A DNA stretch of 64,000 bases from Candidatus Doudnabacteria bacterium RIFCSPHIGHO2_01_FULL_46_24 (GCA_001777575.1 MFEL01000010.1:20661-84660); one strand, 5' to 3'. Positions 26,048 to 62,850 are shown, numbered from the stretch's first letter. Notes: generated by a model not told the origin, from the letters alone. Numbers and translations are program-made.

Positions 26048-26902
26048 CTAGTCCAACTTCAACTTGCCGACCGCCTTGCGCCACTTCCTGAGCAAGCCGT
26101 CGAGCCTCCTATTCTCCGCCCGAAGGCGCTTGTTTTCCTCGAGAACCTCGAGCGTAGCCGTTGCGATCAGCTCGATGTTCTCAGCCAGGAATACGGCCGA
26201 GTCCTTCTGCGCCGCTTCCTGCTTCAGCACGCGCTTCCGCTGGCGTACCGACTTCCGCGTCGTCTTTTTGGCAGGCTTGGCCGTGACCACGCCCGCTGCC
26301 TGGCGGGCCTTGCGGATCGCTTGCGCCAAGCCGCCGAGCGTGGCGTCCTTGTAGCCAGTCTCATGTACCTTGCCAAGGATTGCCTTAGCAGAGGCCTGAC
26401 AACTCAGGGCGGCATTGTCCAGCGTGGCTGCAAACTTCCACAACTGCTGCAAGCCAAGCTTGGTGTACTTATCTTTGCCATGCTTGGTAGCACTGGCTGT
26501 TGCCGGGGTCATACGCACCTCCTTCGGAATTGCCGCCACCAGCCTGGCTGGCAGAACGGCGGTTGTGATTGGCACTGTTGCCGGAGCCGGCTTGATCGGC
26601 CTCCGGTAGGCCAGAATCAGGTTCTTGATCTGACCAATTTCCATCAGCTGGACCGAGAACGCGATCCCTTGCCGCTTCGCCATCTTCTTCACCCGTTCTA
26701 CGATAGGATGGGAAAGATACTTGGCAAAGTACACCTGAAACACCGAACCCGGAATATCACTCTTGCGTTCCCCATCCTGGTCGCTCCAGAAGATTACCTT
26801 CGGATCGCGCCAAAGCTCGGCCCAGTCCCTAGGCAGCCCCCCAACGACGAGTATATGTCCGCGTCGCACTCTGATATCACCTCCTTCAAACGTGCCAGTC
26901 AC
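26048..26902 (-). CDS. DUF2325-like domain protein with a C-terminal basic region plus leucine-zipper-like coiled coil (high GC)
   Basis: HILVVGG...DIPGSVFQVYFAKYLSHPIVERVKKMAKRQGIAF resembles DUF2325; C-terminus KKTTRKSVRQRKRVLKQEAAQK followed by LEENKRLRAENRRLDGLLRK; GC about 60 percent against a background of about 47 percent. Confidence 0.5.
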   Translation of the reverse strand: MTGTFEGGDIRVRRGHILVVGGLPRDWAELWRDPKVIFWSDQDGERKSDIPGSVFQVYFAKYLSHPIVERVKKMAKRQGIAFSVQLMEIGQIKNLILAYRRPIKPAPATVPITTAVLPARLVAAIPKEVRMTPATASATKHGKDKYTKLGLQQLWKFAATLDNAALSCQASAKAILGKVHETGYKDATLGGLAQAIRKARQAAGVVTAKPAKKTTRKSVRQRKRVLKQEAAQKDSAVFLAENIELIATATLEVLEENKRLRAENRRLDGLLRKWRKAVGKLKLD

Positions 26903-27060
26903 GAACTAATAAACCTACCATAACCGAGTAATTTTGTCCAGGCGCCACGGATGTGCAGGATTGACTTTGTCGGAGATTTTTGTTATACTTATCCGTTCTT
27001 TCGTATATGAGTCCCAAGGAGGACTTTTTGCGCGCCATACCGGCGCGCGTGGAGGCAACG

Positions 27061-28137
27061 ATGAGACGCTTGCTCGTAGCGGTCGCGCTCGTGGCATTTC
27101 TGCTCGGTATCGTGACTGGAGCAAAAGCTGGCGGAGTGGAACGGACCATCTTGTCGCTGGACCTCAACAGCGACGGTCGGGAGGATCTGCTCGTATACGA
27201 CCCGACGACCGGCGCGTTCACACGAGTGTTCCAGTATCCCGGCTGGCCATACGCCGCGCCGACCGAATACTGGCTGCCAGGGATGAATGTGGTCATGGGA
27301 TTTCTGGACGAGGATGCCTCGCCAGACGTGATCTTCTACGACCCGGCAACCGGCCTGGTCTGGCAGGCTCTCAACTACGCTGGGACGCTATATGTTACCA
27401 CCGTCACGTCCTGGCCCAGGGGCATGCTGGCGTACCCGTTTGACCACAACGGCGACGGGGCTACGGATTTCTTCCTGTACAACCGGGTAACAGGGGAGTG
27501 GTCACTCCAGCTCAACACCTGGAACGGCTACTTCACGGAAGTCAACGGCCGGTGGTCTGAGGGCTGGGAGATACGAGTGGGTAACTTCTCCGCCTTCGAT
27601 CATAACCAGGACCTGCTCCTGTACAACCGGGAGACAGGCGTCTGGTACAAGGCCCTGTCTGACGGCTTCGGCGGGTTCTATTACTCACAGCCTGGCCGCT
27701 GGTCGCCGGGATGGAACGTGTCCATCGGGCGATTCAATATCGACGCGGCCGATGACGTGTTCCTCTACAACCCTGTAACCGGAGTCTGGTTTCGGGTCTT
27801 CTCGGATGGCTGGACCGGCTTCTACTGGTACGAGAGGGGGGGATGGTCGGCGGGGTGGAGTGTTCTCATCGCGAGGCTGGAAAAACGCGGCCTCGATGAC
27901 CTGATTCTCTACCATGCTGGCACTGGCGCTGGGTTCGCCTGCGTAACGCAAGCCTACGCCGGCTTCAGGTACCATCGGCTGACGCTGTACAATAGTGCCG
28001 TGCCGATGGTGCAGGACTTCAGCGGGGATCGGCTGTCCGATCTGCTGCTGTGGATTGACCTGACCAACCCGGTCGGGTTCAGTCGGTACAAGTCCGTGCT
28101 AAGAGGAGGCAACTTCGACCACCTTGAGTGGTGGTAG
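27061..28137 (+). CDS. secreted FG-GAP/VCBS-like repeat protein, predicted 7-bladed beta-propeller (high GC)
   Basis: Signal peptide MRRLLVAVALVAFLLGIVTGAKA; 7 repeats of about 50 aa with D-x-[DN]-x-D-G-x-x-D-L/F plus the hydrophobic YNxxTGxW pattern. Confidence 0.6.
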   Translation: MRRLLVAVALVAFLLGIVTGAKAGGVERTILSLDLNSDGREDLLVYDPTTGAFTRVFQYPGWPYAAPTEYWLPGMNVVMGFLDEDASPDVIFYDPATGLVWQALNYAGTLYVTTVTSWPRGMLAYPFDHNGDGATDFFLYNRVTGEWSLQLNTWNGYFTEVNGRWSEGWEIRVGNFSAFDHNQDLLLYNRETGVWYKALSDGFGGFYYSQPGRWSPGWNVSIGRFNIDAADDVFLYNPVTGVWFRVFSDGWTGFYWYERGGWSAGWSVLIARLEKRGLDDLILYHAGTGAGFACVTQAYAGFRYHRLTLYNSAVPMVQDFSGDRLSDLLLWIDLTNPVGFSRYKSVLRGGNFDHLEWW

Positions 28138-28166
28138 CTACGCCGAGCCGACTCGACGCAGCAAGG

Positions 28167-28212
28167 GTCGCGCGGCAGGGTTCAGCCCCTGACCGCGCGA
28201 CCCTTCTTTTTT
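28167..28212 (+). terminator. rho-independent terminator
   Basis: GGGTCGCGCGG-17nt-CCGCGCGACCC followed by TTCTTTTTTT. Confidence 0.85.
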
Positions 28213-28399
28213 TGAAAAACCGTTCCACGCCATATTCGATTTTTACGCTAGGGAAGTGTCCCCAGAATATCTAATATCTGATTTCTAAAACAGAAAGAGC
28301 GTATTATCGAAGCGATAAGAAAGCTAAGGGGAGTGGGCTGAAAGAGGCTTATTCTGAGATATTAAGCTCGCCGCACAATGGCACTTGGACGACTAGCTA

Positions 28400-28930
28400 T
28401 TATATGGAATTAAATTTAAAAGGGTTTGGTCTAGATGATTTATATTCCAGCATTTGGTTTCTTATCTTATGCAACTCTTTTTCAATATCTGGCTCTAAAT
28501 GATTAGAAATGAATCCTCGCACACCTTTTTTGACATTAATATTTTTCAAACGTGCGCCTGAGATTAACTCTACTCCCCTACTCCAAAGCTTAAAATCCGA
28601 CGCTTTCTTCCCACGTAAGGGATGTTTATTAAATAATGGAATAAATATTTCTCTCAACAGCTTTGGATTCTGTACAGAATACCTTGCTAACTTGCCACCG
28701 TTAACGAAAGTCACTGATCCGCATCCAAGCGTATCTCTAATTTTATGCAAAAGATTGGCATCATCGGAGCGTAAAACTATTGCGAACTCTGCATTCCAGT
28801 AAAAATATTCTCTCGTCTTCCCATTTCTTATCTTTCTATCCAATCTATACTTCAGAGCAAAACAACCCTCACCTTCAACAAATCCGGCTAAGTAATCGCC
28901 AGGCAATTTATCAATAGTTTCAGGCTGCAT
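28400..28930 (-). CDS. LAGLIDADG-family homing endonuclease (single-motif, homodimer type), free-standing
   Basis: DYLAGFVEGEGCFAL motif; 176 aa; AT-rich (about 33 percent GC); starts 9 nt after the M23 peptidase stop. Confidence 0.75.
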   Translation of the reverse strand: MQPETIDKLPGDYLAGFVEGEGCFALKYRLDRKIRNGKTREYFYWNAEFAIVLRSDDANLLHKIRDTLGCGSVTFVNGGKLARYSVQNPKLLREIFIPLFNKHPLRGKKASDFKLWSRGVELISGARLKNINVKKGVRGFISNHLEPDIEKELHKIRNQMLEYKSSRPNPFKFNSI

Positions 28931-53623: not shown

Positions 53624-53684
53624 GGCATAGCCATTTTACTTTTTTCGTCGGGCAGGTGTCAAATTTATTTCTGCAGTAAATCGA

Positions 53685-53735
53685 AAATAGCCTCAAATAT
53701 GAGGCTATTTTACGATTTTTCTTGTCAATCTAAAA
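53685..53735. promoter_or_regulatory. two palindromes between the ATPase operon end and the trmB start: TAGCCTCA-aat-ATGAGGCTA (terminator-like) and TTGTCAAT-ctaaa-ATTGACAA (operator-like)
   Basis: 8-bp perfect arms each. Confidence 0.45.
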
Positions 53736-53743
53736 TTGACAAA

Positions 53744-55510
53744 TTAAAATTTTACCGTCTCGCCAGGCTGGATATGTCCTGTCTGGTCATGACTTTTATC
53801 CACAGGTAAATCTGCTTCTTGCTGCGGCTTTTTTAAGGATTCCGCCAGACCCTTGCTCAGGGTTTCAACTGCAGACTCTGTTTTCTTCGTCTGCTGATTG
53901 AGTACCTTGTCCCAAACCGGATTATCCGGCTTTTTCTCATTACTTCTTCGGGTGGAATGCTCTTGGGTTTGCTTTTGCCTTCTCTCAATCTGCCTGCGAT
54001 CCTCTCGCTGAGGTTTCTTTTGCTCAGTTGGCTTAAACGGTGCGGTGCGGTCAGTCTTTGGTTCAAGCGGGTCTGCCTGCCCAGCATCAGCTTGGTGCTG
54101 GGTCTGCCTGATGGCTTGGGCGCTCCCTGCCGTTACACGCTCGCGATAGCGCAGCTCTTCCTGCAGGTCTTGCTGGTCCACCGCCGCACTCTCGGCCTGG
54201 GCAGCCTCTGCATGAAACTCAGCGCCCATCCATTTGTTGATTTTTTCCTCGATCACAGACCTGGGCGTGGCGTAACGCTCTCTGGAAACTTTAATCACTT
54301 TTTCGGTGTTACCGGTGGGAACCGAGATTGGGGGCAGAGTGGTTGCGGAAAACGGATGCGAGGCCACACCGTTAATCATCAGTTTGAGATAAATATTGTA
54401 CTTGGCTAAATTCACCAAATCATTCATCGTATATTCCGGCTCAAATTCCTTTTCCAGAAACTCGGCATCTTCCGCTCCCATCCTGAAACAAACCATGGTC
54501 CCGACGTTGCCGAAAATGGCGTCCCGAACCGTTGTGTTTCGCTCAAATACCAGCTGGCCGATATACTGGTGCGCCACGATTAGGTTGAGTCGGTACTTCC
54601 TGGCTTCGGATAATATATTGGCAAAAGAATTGGTCGCGAAATTTTGGAACTCGTCGACGTAAAGGTAAAAATCTTCGCGAGTTTCCTCGGGTATATCCAC
54701 CCGGCTCATGGCCGCCAGCTGCAATTTGGTGATGAGCATCGCACCCAGCAGGGCGGAGTTGTCTTCCCCAATGCGGCCCTTGGACAGGTTGATCAAAAAG
54801 ATCTTCTTGTTATCCATAATATCGCGCAAATCTATGGCGCTTTTAGTCTGGCCGACTATGTTGCGGATGATGGCCGAGGAAAGAAATTGCCCAACCTTGT
54901 TTTGGATAGGGGCAATGGCTTCGTTTCGGAATTTATCGTTATAATTGGCAAATTCGTCCACCCAAAAAGACTTGACCACCGGGTCTTTGATATTGTCCAC
55001 AATTTTTTTTCGGTAAGCTTTATTGACCAGCATCCGCGCAATCCCAAGCATGGTGTTGCCGGGAGAGTCAAGCAGGGCCAAAATCGTGTTGCTTAAAATA
55101 TATTCCATCCTGGCCGACCACACTCCGGCCCAGATTTTGGTAAACACCCCCATCAATCCCGAGGCGACCAAATGCTTGTATTTGGGATCCACCGCTTCCA
55201 GCGGATTGAACGCGATCGGAAAGTCCAAATCAGCCGGATTGAAATAAACCACGTCATTGACTCTGTCGGAGGGGATATATTCCAAGACTTTTTCCACCGA
55301 ATCGCCGTGCGGATCGACAAACGTCACGCCGTGTCCGTTTTGGATATCCTGAACGACCATATTCTCGATCAAAGTGGTTTTACCCATGCCGGTTTTTCCA
55401 ATGATGTACATGTGCCGGCGCCGGTCGTCTTGGCGGATGCCAAAAGGCGTTTCGCGGTTGCGAAAATTGGTTTTGGCGAACAAGATGATATCGTTATTCT
55501 GGTCCATAAT
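53744..55510 (-). CDS. FtsK/HerA-superfamily P-loop ATPase (DUF87 / T4CP-like), lacking its own TM anchor, with a long disordered Q/E/K-rich C-terminal tail
   Basis: Walker A IIGKTGMGKTT, FVDPHGD, Walker B LYVDEFQNF, AHQYIGQL; probable start MDQNND at 55510, 1 nt after the upstream stop. Confidence 0.7.
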   Translation of the reverse strand: MMDQNNDIILFAKTNFRNRETPFGIRQDDRRRHMYIIGKTGMGKTTLIENMVVQDIQNGHGVTFVDPHGDSVEKVLEYIPSDRVNDVVYFNPADLDFPIAFNPLEAVDPKYKHLVASGLMGVFTKIWAGVWSARMEYILSNTILALLDSPGNTMLGIARMLVNKAYRKKIVDNIKDPVVKSFWVDEFANYNDKFRNEAIAPIQNKVGQFLSSAIIRNIVGQTKSAIDLRDIMDNKKIFLINLSKGRIGEDNSALLGAMLITKLQLAAMSRVDIPEETREDFYLYVDEFQNFATNSFANILSEARKYRLNLIVAHQYIGQLVFERNTTVRDAIFGNVGTMVCFRMGAEDAEFLEKEFEPEYTMNDLVNLAKYNIYLKLMINGVASHPFSATTLPPISVPTGNTEKVIKVSRERYATPRSVIEEKINKWMGAEFHAEAAQAESAAVDQQDLQEELRYRERVTAGSAQAIRQTQHQADAGQADPLEPKTDRTAPFKPTEQKKPQREDRRQIERRQKQTQEHSTRRSNEKKPDNPVWDKVLNQQTKKTESAVETLSKGLAESLKKPQQEADLPVDKSHDQTGHIQPGETVKF

Positions 55511-55511
55511 T

Positions 55512-56822
55512 TTAACCAATCGGTAAATCAGCCGGCGGAGCTGATTTGACTGCCTGAACTTTTTCAAGCTGGGAGACCCTGACATTCGGCGCAACTGGGA
55601 AATGAAAAACCGTGGCGAGCTCTTCGGTATTCATATAGTTCTCTCCAGTTCCCTGCCAAATTTTTCGCCCGAGGAAATAATGCCACATATGGCGCTTGCG
55701 GACCAAGGTTTGGTGGCGCAAAGCCGGGGCTTCCAAAGTTGGCGACAGCTTATAATCCGGGTTGGTCCAGGTGTGGGCGATATCCGGCTTAAGGCCGTTC
55801 AAATTCACATCATCAAAATTGCGGAATGCGCCAATAATCTCCGGCACGCGCAATGATCGGTTGAACTTGTCCTTGGGCGCCAGATAAAGCAGGCGAAGTT
55901 TGAACTTGTAATAAATTTTGCCAAGAGCATTCTCCACGTCTGCAATAATTTTTTTTTCCACGTCGCTTTTGTGCAGCATCAGAGTCGGCGGCTCTTCCTT
56001 GACATGCTGTTGTTCCACTTCTGCTTCAACTCCCATAATATCATGCACTAAAATATCCATAAAATACCTGGGAATGGAGATAACACTGTTAAACCAGCCG
56101 TTCTTATGTTCAGAGCGAGCGCCCTTGAGTTCGTCCAAAAGATACTTGGTGTTTTTTTTCCAGTCGTCATTAATCGGCTGGATGCAAAGCTGGTAAGCCA
56201 GCAGTTCCCAGGGTTGAATATTGCTCATAACTTCAATAATATTGGATACCGGGTCAATGAATGTCTCCTGCTCCTTGTGTTCAAATCCCATAATCAGCCG
56301 GATGGGATAGGCATTGTCTTTTTTTTTGTTCAGCTGTGTGCCCCAAAATTCAAAATCAGCGGATTGAGGATAATACTCATGCGGCATATTCCTGAGGTAG
56401 TCTTCGGTTTCACTAATCTCGGCTCTTGGGTACTGGGCGAAAATAGCGCTCTCCAAAAGCGCGCGATAACGCTTTGGTATTTTGAATATGTACGAAACCT
56501 TGCCGCCGAGAGAAACAATTTCGCAAGACAACCACAACACGCTCTTGCCGCCAAATAGAGTTTCACCGAAGCTGTAATTGGTATGGATTGCGTGGAGCGC
56601 GGCGAATACTTGCTCCATGGCTAACGACGAGCGCTCGTTCAGGTCATGAATTTTAAGCTCCAAGAAAATCCATTCAATGCTGTTAATATAAGCCGTATTG
56701 TTTTTGATCGTGGTCAGCTTGTACCACATCCAAAGCAGCAGGCCCAAAAAAAATACCCAGCCAAATGGGACCAAGCCGTAATCCACCGCAAAACTGAATA
56801 AATCTCGTAGCGCTTGAATCAT
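55512..56822 (-). CDS. hypothetical membrane protein (N-terminal TM), partner of the ATPase
   Basis: TM GLVPFGWVFFLGLLLWMW followed by an about 400-aa soluble domain with no known motif. Confidence 0.5.
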   Translation of the reverse strand: MIQALRDLFSFAVDYGLVPFGWVFFLGLLLWMWYKLTTIKNNTAYINSIEWIFLELKIHDLNERSSLAMEQVFAALHAIHTNYSFGETLFGGKSVLWLSCEIVSLGGKVSYIFKIPKRYRALLESAIFAQYPRAEISETEDYLRNMPHEYYPQSADFEFWGTQLNKKKDNAYPIRLIMGFEHKEQETFIDPVSNIIEVMSNIQPWELLAYQLCIQPINDDWKKNTKYLLDELKGARSEHKNGWFNSVISIPRYFMDILVHDIMGVEAEVEQQHVKEEPPTLMLHKSDVEKKIIADVENALGKIYYKFKLRLLYLAPKDKFNRSLRVPEIIGAFRNFDDVNLNGLKPDIAHTWTNPDYKLSPTLEAPALRHQTLVRKRHMWHYFLGRKIWQGTGENYMNTEELATVFHFPVAPNVRVSQLEKVQAVKSAPPADLPIG

Positions 56823-56828
56823 GGAAAA

Positions 56829-57929
56829 TTAAACCAAAGTGAATTTATCTTTGCCGACTTTCTGAAAACGCTTCTTATTGGACAGGCCGACGAGGATCGT
56901 ATTGCGCTTGACCATGCGGCGTTTCAACACCTCGTTGATGATCTCATCGCGGGAAAGCGGCCGCTGAGCGGCGGTCAACGTTTCTATAATCACATCGGCA
57001 ACTACGCCTTTTTTATACCCCCATTCGGAAAGCGCATAAATCCCCCGGCCGATCAGGACAAACCGGTTATCTTTAATCAGCTCATTATGGACCGTCTCCT
57101 GATAGGCTGTCCGGTGGTCAAACTTACGCGCGTTGATCATCTTGGTGATGATCGAATAGTGCTCCGGTTTGCCGTGATGCTTCAAAACCAGATAAGCCTT
57201 GTCGCCCACATCCCGCGGCCTGACTTCATTCCAACTGGCCAGACCGATTTCTCCAAACGGATTGATCAGAATTTGTTTGGATAAGCTTAGATAGCTTTTC
57301 AACACCTTGTCGGTCAGCTCAAACTGGTGTCGCCGATAATAGTCAGTGTCCTTGAGTTTGGCGCTTAAGTCATCCTGCTTAAACACACGGCCCTCTGCCT
57401 TCAAAATATCAATCAGGACTGCTATAGTTCCGGTAAGCCGCTCTTCGTTAAACCCGGCCAATGCAAAAGCATGGTAGTAATCGCCGGTCTCTTTCCATTC
57501 ATGAAACTGCTCGCCCACCGCCAGTAAAAACTTAACTGCCTGGCGATCTTTCTCGTTTTCTTTACCGGGCAAGAGAGTTTCCAGGAAAAATTCCTCAGAC
57601 ATGACATCCCCATACTCGGCAATAGTGTCGAAAATCAAGCGCAGCGCCGCTTCCAGCTCTGTCCCGCCTTTGTGTCGCAGAGCCTCAATCGAATCCTTTT
57701 CAATTTGCCGCACCCTTTCTCTGGTGAGATTGTGCTGTGTGCCAATCGCCTCGAGTGTGGAAAGTTCCCGTCCTTCCAGCCCGAACCGCCGGACAAGTAT
57801 TTCCCTGTCTCGTTCTTTGAGCATTGCCAAAAGTTTGCTTACAATCCCTTCCGGCTCAAAGGACGAAAGGCTGCTCTGGGTCTGCGAACCCATGATAGTA
57901 TCAAGTATGTTGGAAGATAATTCTGTCAT
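56829..57929 (-). CDS. DNA-binding protein: sigma-70 region 4 HTH plus C-terminal HARE-HTH domain
   Basis: REILVRRFGLEGRELSTLEAIGTQHNLTRERVRQIEKDSIEALRH (sigma region 4); GKPEHYSIITKMINA...RFVLIGRGIYALSEWGY matches the HARE-HTH signature of RNAP delta/ASXL/restriction-enzyme HTH. Confidence 0.6.
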   Translation of the reverse strand: MTELSSNILDTIMGSQTQSSLSSFEPEGIVSKLLAMLKERDREILVRRFGLEGRELSTLEAIGTQHNLTRERVRQIEKDSIEALRHKGGTELEAALRLIFDTIAEYGDVMSEEFFLETLLPGKENEKDRQAVKFLLAVGEQFHEWKETGDYYHAFALAGFNEERLTGTIAVLIDILKAEGRVFKQDDLSAKLKDTDYYRRHQFELTDKVLKSYLSLSKQILINPFGEIGLASWNEVRPRDVGDKAYLVLKHHGKPEHYSIITKMINARKFDHRTAYQETVHNELIKDNRFVLIGRGIYALSEWGYKKGVVADVIIETLTAAQRPLSRDEIINEVLKRRMVKRNTILVGLSNKKRFQKVGKDKFTLV

Positions 57930-58011
57930 ATATTACAGTATAGCACAAAACTAGATTTCTGTCAACTCCTAATGGATTGACCTCTAAATAACTACCAGGC
58001 ATAATTTCTTT

Positions 58012-58227
58012 ATGAATACCCCAGAAGCCCGGCGATTCGAAACGCCCAGCATAGCTCACGAGGATCGCGACTGCGCACTGTGCGGCCAGCCAGAGGGCAC
58101 CAATCCCTCCTGTGATGCCTGCGCGAGGATCATGGGCGCCCAAAGGAGGGATCAGATGCTCCGCGATATTGAAGCGGAGGGAAAACGTCTTGGTTTAGGA
58201 AAAACTAAGCGAAATAAAAGACGCTAA
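58012..58227 (+). CDS. small zinc-ribbon protein with a basic tail (high GC)
   Basis: CALCG-x10-CDAC; its own TTGACC -18- ATAATT promoter (57978-58006) and terminator. Confidence 0.45.
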   Translation: MNTPEARRFETPSIAHEDRDCALCGQPEGTNPSCDACARIMGAQRRDQMLRDIEAEGKRLGLGKTKRNKRR

Positions 58228-58246: not shown

Positions 58247-58272
58247 CCTCCGGTCCGGAGGATATTTTTTTG
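58247..58272 (+). terminator. rho-independent terminator
   Basis: CCTCCGG-t-CCGGAGG followed by atatTTTTTTT. Confidence 0.7.
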
Positions 58273-58309: not shown

Positions 58310-59209
58310 TTATCCCGAGCGACGCCTTTGCCAATTGTGCCACACCAAAAGCAACGGCGAGGCGATGAAAATCGAAGAATAAGTCCCAGCCGTGATGCCA
58401 ACCAAAAGCGCCAGCACGAACCAGCGAATAGTTTCGCCGCCGAACAAAAGCAGAGCCAGTAGCACGAAAATCACGGTTAAGGAAGTGTTAATGGATCGCA
58501 CTAACGTCTGGTTGATGCTGTTACTGATAATTTCCGATAACGGCAGTCCACCGCTGATTCGCAGATTCTCGCGGATGCGGTCAAAGACCACGATGGTGTC
58601 ATGCACCGAAAAGCCCAGCACAGTCAAGAGGGCTGTAATAAACAAACTGTCGATTTCGACGTGCAAGAACCGGCCCAAAATCGCAAACACGCCGATGACA
58701 ATCATCAAATCATGGACCAGGGCAACGATCGCGGCGATGCCGAATTTCCAAGATGACACGGGTTTGGAAACTTTTCTGAAAGCGTAGGCAATGTAGAAAA
58801 TGATGCCGAAACTGACCACGATCAGCTGCAACATGGCGGACGAGCGTAGCTCCCTGCCGATAACCGGACCGATGGAAGTAAACTGCTCCTCCTCCACCAA
58901 GCCGTATTTGTCCCCTAAAACCTGAAGCAGTCGGTCATGTTCTTTTTTTTCCATGGGCGGCGTTCGGACAATCGCCGACCTCTCCCCTGCCGGCTGGACA
59001 ACCAAATCGCCGAAATTGCTGTCACCCAAGAAGCCTCTGATTTCAGCCGCACTCGGCACATTGTCGCCAAACTTGACTTGGGTTAACGTTCCGCCATTAA
59101 AATCGATGCCAAAATTCAAGCCAAAGGCGATCAATGCCGCGATGCTGATTGCCAGGGCAACGCCTGAGACTAAAAACCAAAATTTGTAGTGCTTAATGAT
59201 GTTTAGCAT
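58310..59209 (-). CDS. secF: protein translocase subunit SecF
   Basis: 6 TM, ALVHDLMIVIGVFAI. Confidence 0.9.
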   Translation of the reverse strand: MLNIIKHYKFWFLVSGVALAISIAALIAFGLNFGIDFNGGTLTQVKFGDNVPSAAEIRGFLGDSNFGDLVVQPAGERSAIVRTPPMEKKEHDRLLQVLGDKYGLVEEEQFTSIGPVIGRELRSSAMLQLIVVSFGIIFYIAYAFRKVSKPVSSWKFGIAAIVALVHDLMIVIGVFAILGRFLHVEIDSLFITALLTVLGFSVHDTIVVFDRIRENLRISGGLPLSEIISNSINQTLVRSINTSLTVIFVLLALLLFGGETIRWFVLALLVGITAGTYSSIFIASPLLLVWHNWQRRRSG

Positions 59210-59270
59210 AGTTCTGAGTTCTAAGTTTCTAAAGTTAAACGCAACTTTATGAACTTAGAACTTTATAAAC
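59209..59270 (-). repeat. AGTTCTGAG-family repeat, copy C, between the secD stop and the secF start
   Basis: tagttctgagttctaagtttctaaagttaaacgcaactttatgaacttagaactttataaac; abuts the secF ATG. Confidence 0.7.
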
Positions 59271-59272
59271 TT

Positions 59273-60613
59273 TCAACTTTCCTCTGACATTTTTGGCACG
59301 CCGTACAGCCAATGATGCACTAAGAGATTATGCCCCACCAAAAGTCTTAAGAAAGTCCGCGTGAGCGTGATTGCGGTGAACATGGAAACGATGATGCCGA
59401 TGGACAGGGTGATGGCAAAACCGCGGATGATACTGGAGCCGAAGTAACCCAAGATAAAGGTGGTGATCAAGCTGGAGAAGTTGGAATCGCGGACGGACAG
59501 CCAGGCGCGCTTAAATCCCTCCTCCACCGCCTGCTCCAAGGTCCGACCCTTGCGCAATTCTTCCTTCAGGCGTTCAAAAATTAAAATATTGGCATCCACC
59601 GCCATGCCGATGGACAGGATAAAGCCGGCAATGCCCGCTAGCGTAAATGTGATGCCGAAAACTTTGAACAAGGCAATGCTGAGAGCGGTATAAATGGAAA
59701 GTGCGATGACGGCCAACAAACCGGGCAGGCGGTAGTAAACAATCATGAATAGGGCGATAATGGCAAAACCGATCAAACCGGCAGCCACGCTTTTCTGAAC
59801 CGATGCCAGTCCCAATGTAGCGCCGACATTCTGCTGTTGGATAAGTTTGATCGGCACTGGCAAAGCTCCCGAGTTGAGCCTGGTCACCAATTCCTTGGCT
59901 TCCTGCACCGTAAATTGACCGGTAATCACGGCCCGGCCATCAGTGATGGCGGTTTGCACCGTGGGTGCGGATAAAATTTGGCCGTCGAGGAAAATAGCCA
60001 CCCGCTTGCCGATATTGCGCTGAGTGATGTCAGCGAACTTTTTGGTCCCTTCAGCGTCGAACTGCAGCGAAATCTGAGGGACTCCGGTCCGTTGATCAAA
60101 TTCCAAACTCGCGCGCTTGAATTCCTTGCCGGTTAAACCTGTGGGGATAAAGGCCTGGTCAGCGCTGATAGTCACTTCGCCATTCACATCCGGGGTCACT
60201 TCGGGCGGATTGGGGTTTTCTACGCGGAATTCCAAAAACGGCGTTTGGCCGATCAGCTTGATCGCTTCATCGATGTCTTTCACCCCGGGCAATTCGATAA
60301 TGATGCGATCTGTTCCCGAGACCTGCACCAAGGGTTCGGATACGCCAAAGGCATTGACGCGCCGCTCGATAACGTCCCGGGCCGAATTCATGGCGTCGGC
60401 ACGGGCGTCTTGAGGAATGTCTTTGAGGTTACCCTCATAGACCAAGTGGGTGCCGCCCTGTAAATCTAAGCCCAAATTGAGCTTGAACTGCTTCTCAAAA
60501 TTGATTCTGGCCCATTTCAGGCTGATTTTACTCCCAGCCGGCAAGGCAATATAAAAAACCGCCCCAGCCAGCAGCAGAATCAGGATAAATTTGAAATATA
60601 AACCCTTGCGCAT
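59273..60613 (-). CDS. secD: protein translocase subunit SecD
   Basis: N-terminal TM, periplasmic domain, 6 C-terminal TM; LDLQGGTHLVYE. Confidence 0.9.
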   Translation of the reverse strand: MRKGLYFKFILILLLAGAVFYIALPAGSKISLKWARINFEKQFKLNLGLDLQGGTHLVYEGNLKDIPQDARADAMNSARDVIERRVNAFGVSEPLVQVSGTDRIIIELPGVKDIDEAIKLIGQTPFLEFRVENPNPPEVTPDVNGEVTISADQAFIPTGLTGKEFKRASLEFDQRTGVPQISLQFDAEGTKKFADITQRNIGKRVAIFLDGQILSAPTVQTAITDGRAVITGQFTVQEAKELVTRLNSGALPVPIKLIQQQNVGATLGLASVQKSVAAGLIGFAIIALFMIVYYRLPGLLAVIALSIYTALSIALFKVFGITFTLAGIAGFILSIGMAVDANILIFERLKEELRKGRTLEQAVEEGFKRAWLSVRDSNFSSLITTFILGYFGSSIIRGFAITLSIGIIVSMFTAITLTRTFLRLLVGHNLLVHHWLYGVPKMSEES

Positions 60614-60682: not shown

Positions 60683-61843
60683 TCATAATTTAATTAAGGA
60701 ATTAAGAAATGCTCTGCTTGCAGCTCTGTCAATTTTGTTGTTTGGCGAAAAAATCAATCTGCCGATTGTCTCACCCTCAAATTGCGTTACCCCGCGAGAG
60801 TTTCTGCCCGACCAATGTTTGAGCAAAATCGTTGACTTTAATAAATTAACCTGAAACATTGAAATTAAAACCTTGTTCACTATTTTATTCGTCTCAATTC
60901 CGATAAAATAAAACATGAACACCGATTTGTCGGTTGCCAGAAATTCGAGCAGCTTATCAATGTTGTATCCCTTAGGATTTGAGCTAAGCACCATTATCTT
61001 TGTTTTGACATCTGTTGCCGTGTCATATTTATCGAATGTGCAAATATAATCGGCAAGTCTATTTTTTGTCCTGAATCCCGGAATAACATTACTACTATCG
61101 TGTAGTGCCTTAACTAAACTTTCTCTCAATTTTTCATCCTCACCTGCAATCAGATATTCAATAATTCTCCCCCTGATATTCACGTTTTCAATAAAGCCAG
61201 CAATCAGAATTTCGGTTTTATACTTCTCAACCTTGGCGTCTAACTCCGCCTTCAATTGCGAATATTCTTTTGATCCCACAAAATCAGCCGCTCGTTCGGG
61301 TGCGTTTTGTATCACCTTTTTTGCGGCTGATGAAACTTCAAACTTTTTACCCGAAGGACTGATGTTTGTGGTCGCTTCTACAAGTCGAGCAAGGTTGCCT
61401 TCAAAGCCCAATTCGGCATGAATACTAAATAGCTTCTCAAAATTCTCTGGTGAATTTGTTAAATCCCCGAACTTTTTTGCAATATCCGAACCGTTAATAC
61501 TTCCACGGATATTATCAATCCGCAGTAATTGAGAACTATGACTTATTTTTTGCAAAAAAGTTGTATTTGCTAAATAAAGGACATTCTTTAACGGCGTTAT
61601 TAAGCAAACAATAAACGGCAAGTCATCATATTTTTGTAGATTTGAAAGTGAAATTACGGTATTTGAAAAACTCAACGAGGAAGAATAGCTGAAACGAACA
61701 GAAAAATGCTTTGAATAATAGACCGATTTATCTTTAGTCAGCTTGAATTTTTTCTGCACTTCACTAATCAAGTTTGCTTTATTGGCAACCCCGCCTTTCG
61801 ATTTTATGAAGTTGATAAATAAAACTATATCTTCGTGCATCAT
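60683..61843 (-). CDS. hypothetical protein, candidate type II restriction endonuclease (AT-rich)
   Basis: Immediately downstream of, and 4-nt overlapping with, the DNA MTase gene; no conserved motif; GC about 33 percent. Confidence 0.35.
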   Translation of the reverse strand: MMHEDIVLFINFIKSKGGVANKANLISEVQKKFKLTKDKSVYYSKHFSVRFSYSSSLSFSNTVISLSNLQKYDDLPFIVCLITPLKNVLYLANTTFLQKISHSSQLLRIDNIRGSINGSDIAKKFGDLTNSPENFEKLFSIHAELGFEGNLARLVEATTNISPSGKKFEVSSAAKKVIQNAPERAADFVGSKEYSQLKAELDAKVEKYKTEILIAGFIENVNIRGRIIEYLIAGEDEKLRESLVKALHDSSNVIPGFRTKNRLADYICTFDKYDTATDVKTKIMVLSSNPKGYNIDKLLEFLATDKSVFMFYFIGIETNKIVNKVLISMFQVNLLKSTILLKHWSGRNSRGVTQFEGETIGRLIFSPNNKIDRAASRAFLNSLIKL

Positions 61844-62850
61844 AGTAATTTTGAATTAAACAGATTTCCCGATTTTTCCTGATCTTTCTTTCCATTTCCG
61901 TTCATCTGTTCATTGAGCGTATTTCTTTCCCAAAAAACGCCGTCAGAATATCCTTGTATAATTTTATTCTGTCGCGCATTTTCTAAGCGTTTTTCTGCTA
62001 AACAGCAATATAGCTCATCTATATCAATGCCAACATATTTACGCCCTAACTTATGCGCGACAACAGACGTTGTTCCCGAACCCAAAAATGGATCAAAAAC
62101 AACATCATTTGGCCTTGAGCTCGCTAAAATTATTTTGGCTACAAGTTTTTCCGGTTTTTGGGTCGGGTGGTCCGTATTTTCAGGCATAGACCAAAACGGG
62201 ATTGCAATATCGGTCCAAACATTCGAGGGATGAGTGATTCTATATTTCCCGTCGCCGTTATCTTCCCAATCTTTAGGTTTTCCGTTCTCGTCTTTATACG
62301 GCGCGATAACTTTACGCTTCATTTTTACCGCTTCAACATCAAAATGATAGTCGTCTGACAAAGTGCAGAACCAAATATCTTCAGAGCAATTTTTCCAGTT
62401 TGATTTTGCGCCTCGCCCTTTTTCTCGTTCAAAAGTAATGCGATTTTGAATTTGAAAATACTTTTTTGCAACGTTTAAAATTGCTCCGGACGACTTCCAG
62501 TCTCCGCAAATATAGATCGAAGCGTGGGGTTTTAAAAGACGAATAATTTTTTGAACCCATGAATCCAGCCACTCCTCGTATTTTTCTGACTCCATTGCTT
62601 TAAATGAAGTAAGGTTGAACGTTTTGTTTAGATTGTATGGAGGGTCAACAAAAACAAGATCAACAAACTTATCGGGCAAATGTTCCAGCGCTTCAAAAAT
62701 ATTTTGATGTATTGTTTTGTTTTCTATCTCGTTCAAAGATGCCGGCTTGTCCAGTTTTATTAAACGCTGTTTGAGCATTGAAATATCCTCATCACTCAAA
62801 GTCATGGTGCGATTTCGGGGCGCTCTTTGTTTTTGGGATATTTCATTCAT
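61840..62850 (-). CDS. site-specific DNA methyltransferase, beta-class N6A/N4C (motif IV DPPY before motif I FxGxG)
   Basis: LVFVDPPYNL and later VVFDPFLGSGTT. Confidence 0.85.
   Translation of the reverse strand: MNEISQKQRAPRNRTMTLSDEDISMLKQRLIKLDKPASLNEIENKTIHQNIFEALEHLPDKFVDLVFVDPPYNLNKTFNLTSFKAMESEKYEEWLDSWVQKIIRLLKPHASIYICGDWKSSGAILNVAKKYFQIQNRITFEREKGRGAKSNWKNCSEDIWFCTLSDDYHFDVEAVKMKRKVIAPYKDENGKPKDWEDNGDGKYRITHPSNVWTDIAIPFWSMPENTDHPTQKPEKLVAKIILASSRPNDVVFDPFLGSGTTSVVAHKLGRKYVGIDIDELYCCLAEKRLENARQNKIIQGYSDGVFWERNTLNEQMNGNGKKDQEKSGNLFNSKLL

What the first reader, a model, noticed from the sequence alone, without database searches (positions are those of the whole stretch)
53744..57929. 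Three-gene operon: sigma-region-4 + HARE-HTH DNA-binding protein, membrane protein and HerA/FtsK-like ATPase; candidate DNA translocation or defence module
On the minus strand the genes follow with 6-nt and 1-nt spacers. The first is a 366-aa protein whose N-terminus is a sigma-70 region-4 HTH. Its C-terminus matches the HARE-HTH signature (PEHYSII...FVLIGRGIYALSEWGY). Aravind and Iyer found that domain in RNAP delta, restriction endonucleases and DNA-modification systems. The second is a 436-aa protein with one N-terminal TM helix and an uncharacterised soluble domain. The third is a 588-aa FtsK/HerA-superfamily ATPase (IIGKTGMGKTT, FVDPHGD, LYVDEFQNF). It resembles VirD4/TraG-type coupling proteins and DUF87 but lacks its own membrane anchor, and it ends in an about 150-aa disordered charged tail. 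A DNA-recognition module, a membrane anchor and a hexameric-type DNA pump suggest DNA translocation, such as conjugation-like transfer or uptake. Alternatively it could be a HerA-based defence system like Sir2-HerA. A TrmB regulator with an operator-like palindrome sits immediately downstream. A type II R-M pair lies 3 kb away.
Basis: partly seen in the sequence, partly recalled or inferred. Interest (0 to 1): 0.7.

Follow-up and report, generated by a model that had tools for sequence, protein, structure and literature searches.

The report
Split conjugation-type ATPase, core to Patescibacteria
The three genes are real, but they are not a mobile or defence module: two of them encode a conjugation-type motor ATPase split into a membrane-anchor piece and a motor piece, fixed in the chromosome of nearly all Patescibacteria (ultra-small bacteria) beside secDF, and the third encodes a separate DNA-binding factor whose counterpart is essential in a cultivated relative.

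Summary
On the minus strand of a Candidatus Doudnabacteria (Patescibacteria) contig lie three genes. A (366 aa) has Sigma70_r4 and HARE-HTH domains. B (436 aa) has one membrane helix and belongs to DUF8128. C (587 aa) is a VirD4/TrwB-type P-loop ATPase with a 147-aa disordered tail. One strong promoter-like site precedes them and one hairpin follows.

In 80 Patescibacteria species genomes, C follows B in 86% of loci, A precedes B in 71%, and secF lies upstream in 65%. The C core is 66% identical across classes, more than SecD. The window holds only housekeeping genes: no relaxase, VirB4 or integrase.

Published Tn-seq in Southlakia epibionticum calls the apparent fused B-C counterpart non-essential and the A counterpart essential.

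Defence and mobile-element readings are not supported. The substrate is unknown. The ATPase was already reported in Patescibacteria; its partner, split architecture and synteny were not found described.

The parts
57937..57965 (-). Sigma-70-type promoter-like site TTGACA-17-TATACT with a TG extension. The -10 hexamer ends 7 nt before the ATG of gene A, so the transcript would have little or no leader.
   Evidence: Consensus scan, 11 of 12 matches; sequence read. It is a consensus match only; function is not shown.
56829..57929 (-). Gene A, 366 aa: sigma-70 region 4 HTH at residues 33-86 and HARE-HTH winged helix at 244-303. No sigma region 2.
   Evidence: Pfam and NCBIfam. More than 7,900 relatives scored, and all 120 listed carry the same two domains. 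The S. epibionticum counterpart SEML1_0294 is called essential in Tn-seq.
55512..56822 (-). Gene B, 436 aa, DUF8128: an N-terminal membrane helix, then a domain (oriented to the cytoplasm only by inference from the charge distribution) with the fold of the VirB4 N-terminal domain, then a disordered C-terminus ending in a conserved PPxxLP motif.
53744..55507 (-). Gene C, 587 aa: a soluble VirD4/TrwB-type P-loop ATPase (core about residues 1-440) followed by a 147-aa disordered tail with an NP[IVL]W motif and a C-terminal KPG[DE]x[IV]xF motif.
   Evidence: Pfam, NCBIfam and PDB sequence hits to TrwB and DotL. Invariant Walker A and B. Tail motifs present in 109 and 72 of 120 relatives. Median 66% identity across Patescibacteria.
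53722..53742 (.). Perfect 8+8 palindrome TTGTCAAT-N5-ATTGACAA, starting 2 nt after the stop codon of C. Role unknown.
   Evidence: one copy in the window; 6 of 100 shuffles give at least one match.
53684..53711 (.). Hairpin of 12 pairs flanked by A and T runs. It looks like a bidirectional intrinsic terminator ending the A-B-C transcription unit. TrmB has its own promoter-like site at 53633-53662.
   Evidence: sequence read.
58310..60613 (-). secD (59273-60613) and secF (58310-59209): conserved upstream neighbours of the module. They are context, not shown to be functionally linked.
   Evidence: Pfam families on the same contig. secF lies upstream of B in 43 of 66 loci with enough DNA.

Best explanation
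B and C together make one two-piece ATPase of the type IV coupling protein (VirD4/TrwB) kind.

C is the soluble P-loop motor. B supplies what C lacks: a membrane helix and a domain, probably cytoplasmic, with the fold of the VirB4 N-terminal domain. In solved type IV secretion machines that domain docks the ATPase on the inner-membrane components VirB3 and VirB8.

In Bacillus plasmids and phages, and in actinobacterial and haloarchaeal plasmids, the two parts are a single protein. There it is encoded next to a VirB4-like ATPase in conjugation-type clusters. In Patescibacteria the protein is split, sits in the chromosome beside secDF, is inherited vertically and has no relaxase nearby. It is a domesticated conjugation-type motor.

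Inferred mechanism:
- B tethers a ring of C to the membrane.
- ATP hydrolysis by C drives a substrate, DNA or protein, into the lineage's relaxase-less type IV secretion apparatus, which is encoded elsewhere.
- The conserved short motifs on the disordered tails of B and C serve as docking peptides.

A is co-transcribed here. It is probably a general RNA-polymerase-associated or DNA-binding factor, not a dedicated subunit of the pump.

My confidence by step:
- Split-motor identity and conjugation ancestry: about 0.85.
- Not mobile and not defence: about 0.9.
- Coupling to the type IV secretion system: about 0.4.
- The substrate is not known.
For: Shown by computation:
- Operon anatomy: one strong promoter-like site, 6-nt and 4-nt spacers, one hairpin.
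- C matches T4CP families and has intact Walker motifs.
- Fusions: phrog_5156 covers both B and C. The DUF8128 profile matches the N-terminal part of phage G gp156 (probability 98.3%, E 1.6e-14), of a B. subtilis plasmid 913-aa protein encoded beside TcpD/TcpE-family conjugation genes (98.2%, E 4.7e-14), of phage SP8 (89%), of Haladaptatus (82%) and of Embleya (73.5%). In each of these proteins the ATPase follows the matched N-terminal part in the same polypeptide.
- The Embleya gene order is PrgI, XF1762, VirB4-like ATPase, fused protein, Replic_Relax, NlpC/P60.
- Synteny in 80 species genomes: B then C in 62 of 72 loci, A then B in 54 of 76, secF upstream in 43 of 66.
- The C core has 66% median identity, against 30% for B and 57% for SecD.
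- The window is housekeeping genes only.

From the literature:
- 5,713 VirD4-type homologues were found in 2,918 of 3,035 Patescibacteria genomes, and only 148 lie near virB4 (PMC12102498).
- The S. epibionticum T4SS lacks a recognisable coupling protein (PMC10633639).
- SEML1_0293 is 921 aa with the ATPase domain at residues 402-719. It is called non-essential, yet its normalised reads fall from 5817 to 2940 to 1372.
Against: - The link between B and VirB4 is at fold level only. Profile comparison with two VirB4-like proteins gives no sequence signal (probability below 1%). The tools do not print which TrwK residues align, so the assignment to the N-terminal domain is inferred from the absence of a P-loop in B and of other P-loop ATPases among the strong hits.
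- The model of C is poor (pLDDT 60.1) and was not used.
- T4CP homologues occur in more genomes (2,918) than VirB4 does (2,417 of 3,035). The T4SS is essential in S. epibionticum while SEML1_0293 is not. Both facts argue against obligatory coupling to the T4SS.
- No VirB4-, PrgI- or Replic_Relax-like ORF lies within 7 kb of B in any of the 80 loci.
- That SEML1_0293 is a B-C fusion is inferred from domain coordinates.
- No physical evidence exists for B-C binding or for any substrate.
Confidence: 0.55

Rival explanations
1. B-C is an autonomous membrane-tethered DNA translocase that works without the type IV secretion system. One example is a motor that pulls incoming DNA through ComEC during natural transformation; another is DNA export.
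For: T4CP homologues are more widespread than VirB4 in Patescibacteria: 2,918 against 2,417 of 3,035 genomes. Both comEC and SEML1_0293 are non-essential in S. epibionticum while the T4SS is essential. The very high conservation of the motor core fits an invariant substrate such as DNA. There is a weak N-terminal match to the archaeal DNA-translocating ATPase CedD (E 2.7e-7).
Against: No competence gene is adjacent in the window or in the 80 loci. Every fused relative with an informative context sits in a conjugation-type cluster. The CedD match covers only the Walker A region (residues 4-85).
Confidence: 0.25
2. One reading: A, B and C form one machine, in which A recognises DNA and loads it on the membrane-anchored pump.
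For: Here the three genes share one promoter-like site, tight spacers and one hairpin. A immediately precedes B in 54 of 76 loci across many classes, Saccharibacteria included. A has two kinds of DNA-binding HTH domain.
Against: The A counterpart SEML1_0294 is called essential at all time points, while the neighbouring SEML1_0293 is called non-essential. A therefore has a function that does not need the pump. A is absent upstream of B in 22 of 76 loci, and A-B gaps reach 386 nt whereas most B-C gaps are under 60 nt. No protein annotated like A is encoded beside the fused plasmid and phage relatives. A diverges at a different rate from C (36% against 66% identity).
Confidence: 0.12
3. The module is an anti-phage defence system built on a HerA-like or MADS-like ATPase.
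For: PADLOC: C matches mad8 (E 2.2e-16) and, weakly and partially, HerA models. A matches only the sigma region-4 part of MzaA. A type II R-M pair lies 2.7 kb away.
Against: There is no Sir2, nuclease or other effector partner, and no other MADS or MZA component. Presence is near-universal, the chromosomal position beside secDF is fixed, and the motor core is 66% identical across classes. Defence islands behave in the opposite way.
Confidence: 0.03
4. The genes are part of an integrated conjugative or mobilisable element.
For: C is of the coupling-protein type, and relatives occur in conjugation-type clusters.
Against: The 64-kb window has no relaxase, integrase, VirB4 or VirB6. GC content at the locus (0.47-0.51) is within the range of the rest of the window. 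The same secDF-linked position recurs in many classes. The literature finds relaxases in only 103 of the Patescibacteria genomes surveyed.
Confidence: 0.02

Closest known systems
Type IV coupling proteins (VirD4, TrwB, TraD, TraG)
   Same: C has the P-loop nucleotide-binding domain and matches the TrwB_AAD_bind, T4SS-DNA_transf and TraG-D_C profiles. TrwB and DotL are its best sequence hits in the PDB. Like TraD, it has a long C-terminal tail.
   Different: C has no N-terminal transmembrane domain in the same polypeptide. The anchor comes in trans from B, whose soluble domain resembles the VirB4 N-terminal domain, which is not a part of classical coupling proteins (my knowledge of the family). 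No relaxase or T4SS genes are nearby. The core is 66% identical across classes, which by my recollection is far more than is usual among coupling proteins. Classical proteobacterial TraD appears only at the weak end of the plasmid hits (E 1e-3).
VirB4 (TrwK of R388)
   Different: There is no sequence-level similarity. C scores only 16.7 bits on TIGR00929 VirB4_CagE against a cutoff of 643. The protein is in two polypeptides. It is not encoded beside VirB3, VirB6 or VirB8 genes.
Fused DUF8128-like plus ATPase proteins of monoderm and archaeal plasmids and Bacillus phages (phage G gp156, phage SP8 906 aa, B. subtilis plasmid CP120602.1 913 aa, Embleya 812 aa, Haladaptatus 1193 aa; PHROG 5156)
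   Same: They have the same two modules in the same order, including the EELAxxxHFP-type motif at the end of the N-terminal module.
   Different: They are single polypeptides, 21-40% identical to C, and sit on plasmids or phages, often right after a VirB4/TraG-P-loop-like ATPase. Phage G gp156 has no N-terminal membrane helix. I found no experimental description of any of them.
Patescibacteria T4CP homologues (Quinonero-Coronel et al. 2025, PMC12102498) and SEML1_0293 of S. epibionticum (Wang et al. 2023, PMC10633639)
   Same: This is the same ATPase family. It was already reported as abundant, encoded far from virB4, without a relaxase and possibly exapted. SEML1_0293 lies next to a Sigma70_r4 plus HARE-HTH gene, as C does here.
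   Different: The main text of PMC12102498 mentions neither SecD, HARE nor sigma. I found no description of the DUF8128 partner, its VirB4-like fold, the split and fused relationship or the secDF-A-B-C synteny. In S. epibionticum the protein appears fused (921 aa); here it is split.
RNA polymerase delta subunit (HARE-HTH) and sigma-70 region 4, for gene A
   Same: A carries both domain types. Some sources name its relatives 'RNA polymerase delta subunit' or 'sigma factor-like HTH protein'.
   Different: A scores 26.1 bits on TIGR04567 (delta subunit) against a cutoff of 42, and every full sigma-factor model is matched only over its region 4 part. It is neither a sigma factor nor a delta subunit by these models.

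Membership tests
Type IV coupling protein (VirD4/TrwB/TraD) | FtsK-HerA-superfamily P-loop domain with Walker A and B, matching the T4CP profiles | tested here: met
   TrwB_AAD_bind 45.9 bits (cutoff 20.5), T4SS-DNA_transf 29.2 (20.1), TraG-D_C 26.4 (22). G37-T45 and D285/E286 are invariant.
Type IV coupling protein (VirD4/TrwB/TraD) | All-alpha domain inserted between Walker A and Walker B | tested here: inconclusive
   The profile match spans positions 11-312 of 387, and helices are predicted at residues 108-232, but the model is poor (pLDDT 60.1).
Type IV coupling protein (VirD4/TrwB/TraD) | N-terminal transmembrane domain in the same polypeptide | tested here: not met
   C has no hydrophobic window above 1.6 (maximum 1.31). 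B carries the only such segment.
Type IV coupling protein (VirD4/TrwB/TraD) | Encoded with a relaxase and/or mating-pair-formation genes | tested here: not met
   None in the 64-kb window and none within 7 kb of B in 80 loci. In the literature, 148 of 5,713 homologues lie near virB4.
Type IV coupling protein (VirD4/TrwB/TraD) | Recruits substrates to a type IV secretion channel | not testable with these tools
   This needs genetics or biochemistry.
VirB4 | N-terminal domain with the VirB4 fold | tested here: met
   [not shown]
VirB4 | C-terminal ATPase of the VirB4 type reaching the family score | tested here: not met
   TIGR00929 VirB4_CagE 16.7 bits against a cutoff of 643.1. The T4CP profiles score higher.
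VirB4 | Encoded beside VirB3/VirB6/VirB8-type genes | tested here: not met
DUF8128 (PF26449) | Match to the Pfam model | tested here: met
   Precomputed PF26449 on the identical protein P0001 and on most relatives. The model is absent from the local Pfam copy.
HARE-HTH | Match above the Pfam gathering score | tested here: met
   29.4 bits against 25.9, residues 244-303.
Sigma-70 family sigma factor | Region 2 (binds the core enzyme and the -10 element) as well as region 4 | tested here: not met
   Only region 4 is matched. All full-length sigma models align with their last 60-75 positions only and stay far below their cutoffs.
RNA polymerase delta subunit (TIGR04567) | Score above the curated cutoff | tested here: not met
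   26.1 bits against 42.
HerA-based defence (Sir2-HerA, DUF4297-HerA) and MADS | HerA-type ATPase encoded with an effector (Sir2 or nuclease) or with the other system genes | tested here: not met
   PADLOC gives only partial HerA hits (E 9e-7 to 3e-4) and mad8 (E 2e-16) for C, and nothing for B. No effector gene is present.
FtsK/SpoIIIE | FtsK_SpoIIIE motor domain, gamma domain and 4TM region | tested here: not met
   C has no FtsK_SpoIIIE hit. A true FtsK exists and is essential in S. epibionticum (SEML1_0096).

The most novel reading that the evidence does not exclude
B-C and its fused relatives form an unrecognised third branch of the VirB4/VirD4 ATPases, with a VirB4-type docking domain joined to a VirD4-type motor. 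It would be an architectural link between the two classical T4SS ATPases. In Patescibacteria this branch has become a near-universal core machine, under stronger constraint than SecD, that works independently of the T4SS, for example as the DNA-import or DNA-export motor of these auxotrophic epibionts. It would be co-regulated with an essential, lineage-specific sigma-region-4/HARE transcription factor.
Probability: 0.2. Interest if true: 0.75.

Novelty: new variant of a known kind. Interest (0 to 1): 0.55.

Why it matters
Patescibacteria make up a large share of uncultivated bacteria. Their type IV secretion system is essential for epibiotic growth in the one species tested by Tn-seq, yet it has no recognised coupling protein or relaxase, so what it moves is an open question.

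This locus shows that the abundant "orphan" VirD4-like ATPase of the phylum is half of a two-part protein. The other half, DUF8128, has the fold of the VirB4 docking domain. The pair descends from the same kind of monoderm conjugation machinery as the phylum's T4SS.

That gives a concrete and testable candidate for the missing cytoplasmic substrate motor, or for a separate DNA translocase. The organism needed for the test, S. epibionticum, can be manipulated genetically, and the gene can be disrupted there.

The work also assigns a structural identity to a domain of unknown function with more than 1,400 sequence clusters. It also flags an essential sigma-region-4/HARE protein that is specific to the lineage.

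Tried and rejected
- The local Pfam and NCBIfam scans gave nothing for B.
- PDB sequence searches with B, and with the DUF8128 profile, gave nothing meaningful.
- tblastn of B against phage genomes found nothing. The phage link came from the PHROG profile and from C.
- hhalign of the DUF8128 profile against two VirB4-like proteins gave no signal.
- The AlphaFold2 model of C was poor (pLDDT 60.1), because the alignment rows are 75-90% identical to the query. It was not used for fold search.
- The afdb50 fold library was not available. The R388 record was not in the plasmid collection.
- The literature holds nothing on DUF8128, and no paper combines T4CP with the phrase 'N-terminal domain of VirB4'.
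- I considered that the 65-kb B. subtilis plasmid was pLS20. This is unlikely: the pLS20 coupling protein is 786 aa with two N-terminal membrane helices.
- I considered FtsK replacement. It is rejected because a true, essential FtsK exists in S. epibionticum.
- Rfam found only one tRNA in the window.
- No fused B-C protein occurs among the 269 DUF8128 relatives held.

Full report
**Source and observation.** The window is a chromosomal stretch of a Candidatus Doudnabacteria (Patescibacteria/CPR) metagenome-assembled genome. The middle protein is 100% identical to a protein named from such a genome and found on contigs up to 187 kb.

- A (56829-57929, 366 aa) carries Sigma70_r4 at residues 33-86 and HARE-HTH at 244-303, both above Pfam's cutoffs.
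- B (55512-56822, 436 aa) has one hydrophobic segment near its N-terminus. The local Pfam and NCBIfam copies give no hit. The precomputed annotation is PF26449, DUF8128.
- C starts at the ATG at 55507 (587 aa, stop at 53744). It matches TrwB_AAD_bind, DUF87, T4SS-DNA_transf and TraG-D_C. TrwB and DotL are its best sequence hits in the PDB.
- The spacers are 6 nt (A-B) and 4 nt (B-C), not 1.
- A near-consensus promoter-like site (TTGACA-17-TATACT with a TG extension) ends 7 nt before the ATG of A. A 12-pair hairpin follows C. TrmB has its own promoter-like site.

**What B is.** An AlphaFold2 model built on 51 sequences is confident (pLDDT 85.4, pTM 0.79). It has a long N-terminal helix and a mixed alpha/beta body.

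- Foldseek independently ranks 14 TrwK chains first.
- Against viral models it finds the fused phage proteins and also the VirB4-like Gp155 of phage G.
- B has no P-loop motif, and no other P-loop ATPase appears among the strong hits. I therefore conclude that the match is to the VirB4 N-terminal domain. This is an inference, because the tools do not print aligned ranges.
- There is no similarity at sequence level.

**B and C are two halves of one protein.**

- PHROG 5156 (824 positions) matches B with its positions 63-208 and C with its positions 406-816.
- Phage G gp156 (825 aa) matches the DUF8128 profile over residues 28-323 (probability 98.3%, E 1.6e-14). It matches C downstream of that (28.6% identity, E 4e-41).
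- The same architecture holds for a 913-aa protein of a 65-kb B. subtilis plasmid that lies beside TcpD/TcpE-family conjugation genes (98.2%, E 4.7e-14). It also holds for phage SP8 (89%), for a Haladaptatus plasmid protein of 1193 aa (82%) and for an Embleya plasmid protein of 812 aa (73.5%).
- The Embleya gene order is PrgI family, XF1762, a VirB4/TraG-P-loop-like ATPase, the fused protein, Replic_Relax, NlpC/P60. That is a monoderm conjugation-type cluster.
- In phage G and in Haladaptatus a VirB4/TraG-like ATPase also sits immediately upstream.
- Classical proteobacterial TraD appears only at the weak end of the plasmid hits.

**Distribution.** DUF8128 has 1,415 clusters at 50% identity with E up to 0.001. 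At least 525 species genomes hold a relative, and the record titles of the 80 fetched loci name many Patescibacteria groups. In those 80 loci:

- C follows B on the same strand in 62 of 72 loci with enough downstream DNA, mostly with gaps under 60 nt.
- A precedes B in 54 of 76 loci.
- secF lies upstream in 43 of 66 loci: secF-A-B in 24 and secF-B directly in 15.
- TrmB was found downstream only in one close relative, L006.

Median identity to the window proteins is 66% for the C core, 57% for SecD, 47% for SecF, 36% for A and 30% for B. The motor is therefore under stronger constraint than a core secretion gene, while its anchor diverges fast. The other large ORFs of the window encode housekeeping functions or have no family match; I found no VirB4, VirB6, relaxase or integrase. 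No VirB4-, PrgI- or Replic_Relax-like ORF lies within 7 kb of B in the 80 loci.

**Literature.**

- Quinonero-Coronel et al. 2025 (PMC12102498) found 5,713 VirD4-type homologues in 2,918 of 3,035 Patescibacteria genomes. Only 148 lie near virB4, and VirB4 is present in 2,417 genomes. Relaxases are rare. The authors note that the coupling protein may have been exapted.
- Wang et al. 2023 (PMC10633639) state that the essential T4SS of S. epibionticum lacks a recognisable coupling protein and relaxase.
- Their tables list SEML1_0293 as 921 aa with TrwB_AAD_bind at residues 402-719, a core and Patescibacteria-enriched family. It is called non-essential, with normalised reads falling from 5817 to 2940 to 1372.
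- Next to it lies SEML1_0294 (Sigma70_r4 plus HARE-HTH), called essential at all three time points.
- A second long paralogue, SEML1_0142, is called essential, as is a true FtsK.
- The N-terminal extension of about 380 residues in SEML1_0293 is consistent with a B-C fusion. I could not test this, because I did not have the sequence.
- No paper mentions DUF8128.

**Interpretation.** B-C is a split coupling-protein-like motor with a VirB4-type docking domain. It derives from monoderm conjugation machinery and is fixed as a core chromosomal gene pair in Patescibacteria.

- The steps from there on are inferred: B tethers a ring of C at the membrane, and C drives a substrate into the relaxase-less T4SS.
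- The wider distribution of the ATPase compared with VirB4, and the difference in essentiality, keep an autonomous DNA-translocase role open.
- A is probably a general transcription-type factor. It is syntenic with the pump but functionally separable from it.
- Defence and mobile-element readings are not supported.

**Verdict.** This is a new variant of a known kind, of moderate to good interest.

Noticed in passing
window 57927-57965: The -10 hexamer of the strong promoter-like site ends 7 nt before the ATG of gene A, so the mRNA would be leaderless or nearly so. No Shine-Dalgarno-like sequence was seen by eye before C either (gattggTAAaattATG).
   Followed up: no
window 53744-54184 (tail of C) and 55512-55590 (C-terminus of B); proteins P0121-P0240, P0291, P0366, P0367, P0382: Conserved short motifs sit on otherwise variable disordered tails. 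C has NP[IVL]W (109 of 120 relatives) and a C-terminal KPG[DE]x[IV]xF (72 of 120). B ends in PPxxLP[FIY], and long B relatives repeat that motif at the very end of a 100-250-aa disordered extension. They may be docking peptides.
   Followed up: partly
window 58012-58227 (+): A 71-aa ORF with CxxC...CxxC spacing lies on the opposite strand between secF and gene A. It is called as a gene on the public contigs, has no Pfam hit and has no relative in the 80 related loci. A GC-rich hairpin at 58247-58261 follows it.
   Followed up: partly
window 26200-28930: A 2-kb island of 55-61% GC in a window that is mostly about 47% GC. It carries a 284-aa ORF that was not scanned and a 385-aa repeat-rich ORF (recurring 'DLLLYN..TG.W' units) without a Pfam hit. 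A 38% GC ORF follows whose N-terminus (LAGFVEGEGCF) looks like a LAGLIDADG homing endonuclease. This may be acquired DNA.
   Followed up: partly
window 60683-62850: A type II restriction-modification pair (PADLOC REase_II 4e-146, MTase_II 5e-69) sits between a PLD-family gene and secD. Its conservation in the related loci was not tested.
   Followed up: partly
L043:15-1055, L049:8259-9704; SEML1_0142 in PMC10633639: Some genomes carry a second, more divergent C-like ATPase near the first one. In S. epibionticum a 1019-aa paralogue (P-loop domain at 381-800, N-terminal 380 aa unassigned) is called essential, unlike SEML1_0293. The two paralogues may divide the work.
   Followed up: no
L004:1220-5362 (Bacillus phage G gp155-gp156); L086:3747-6467 (phage SP8): Large Bacillus phages (G, SPO1-like, CP-51-like and others; 43 records) encode the fused DUF8128-like plus ATPase protein. 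In phage G it directly follows a VirB4/TraG-P-loop-like ATPase. Why lytic phages keep a pair of conjugation-type ATPases is not explained.
   Followed up: partly
L088:6986-8173 (Sulfitobacter mediterraneus plasmid NZ_CP081110.1): The closest plasmid relative of C (39.5% identity, E 1e-92) is a stand-alone 395-aa ATPase with no N-terminal module, encoded beside transposase genes in an alphaproteobacterium.
   Followed up: no
[not shown]
   Followed up: no
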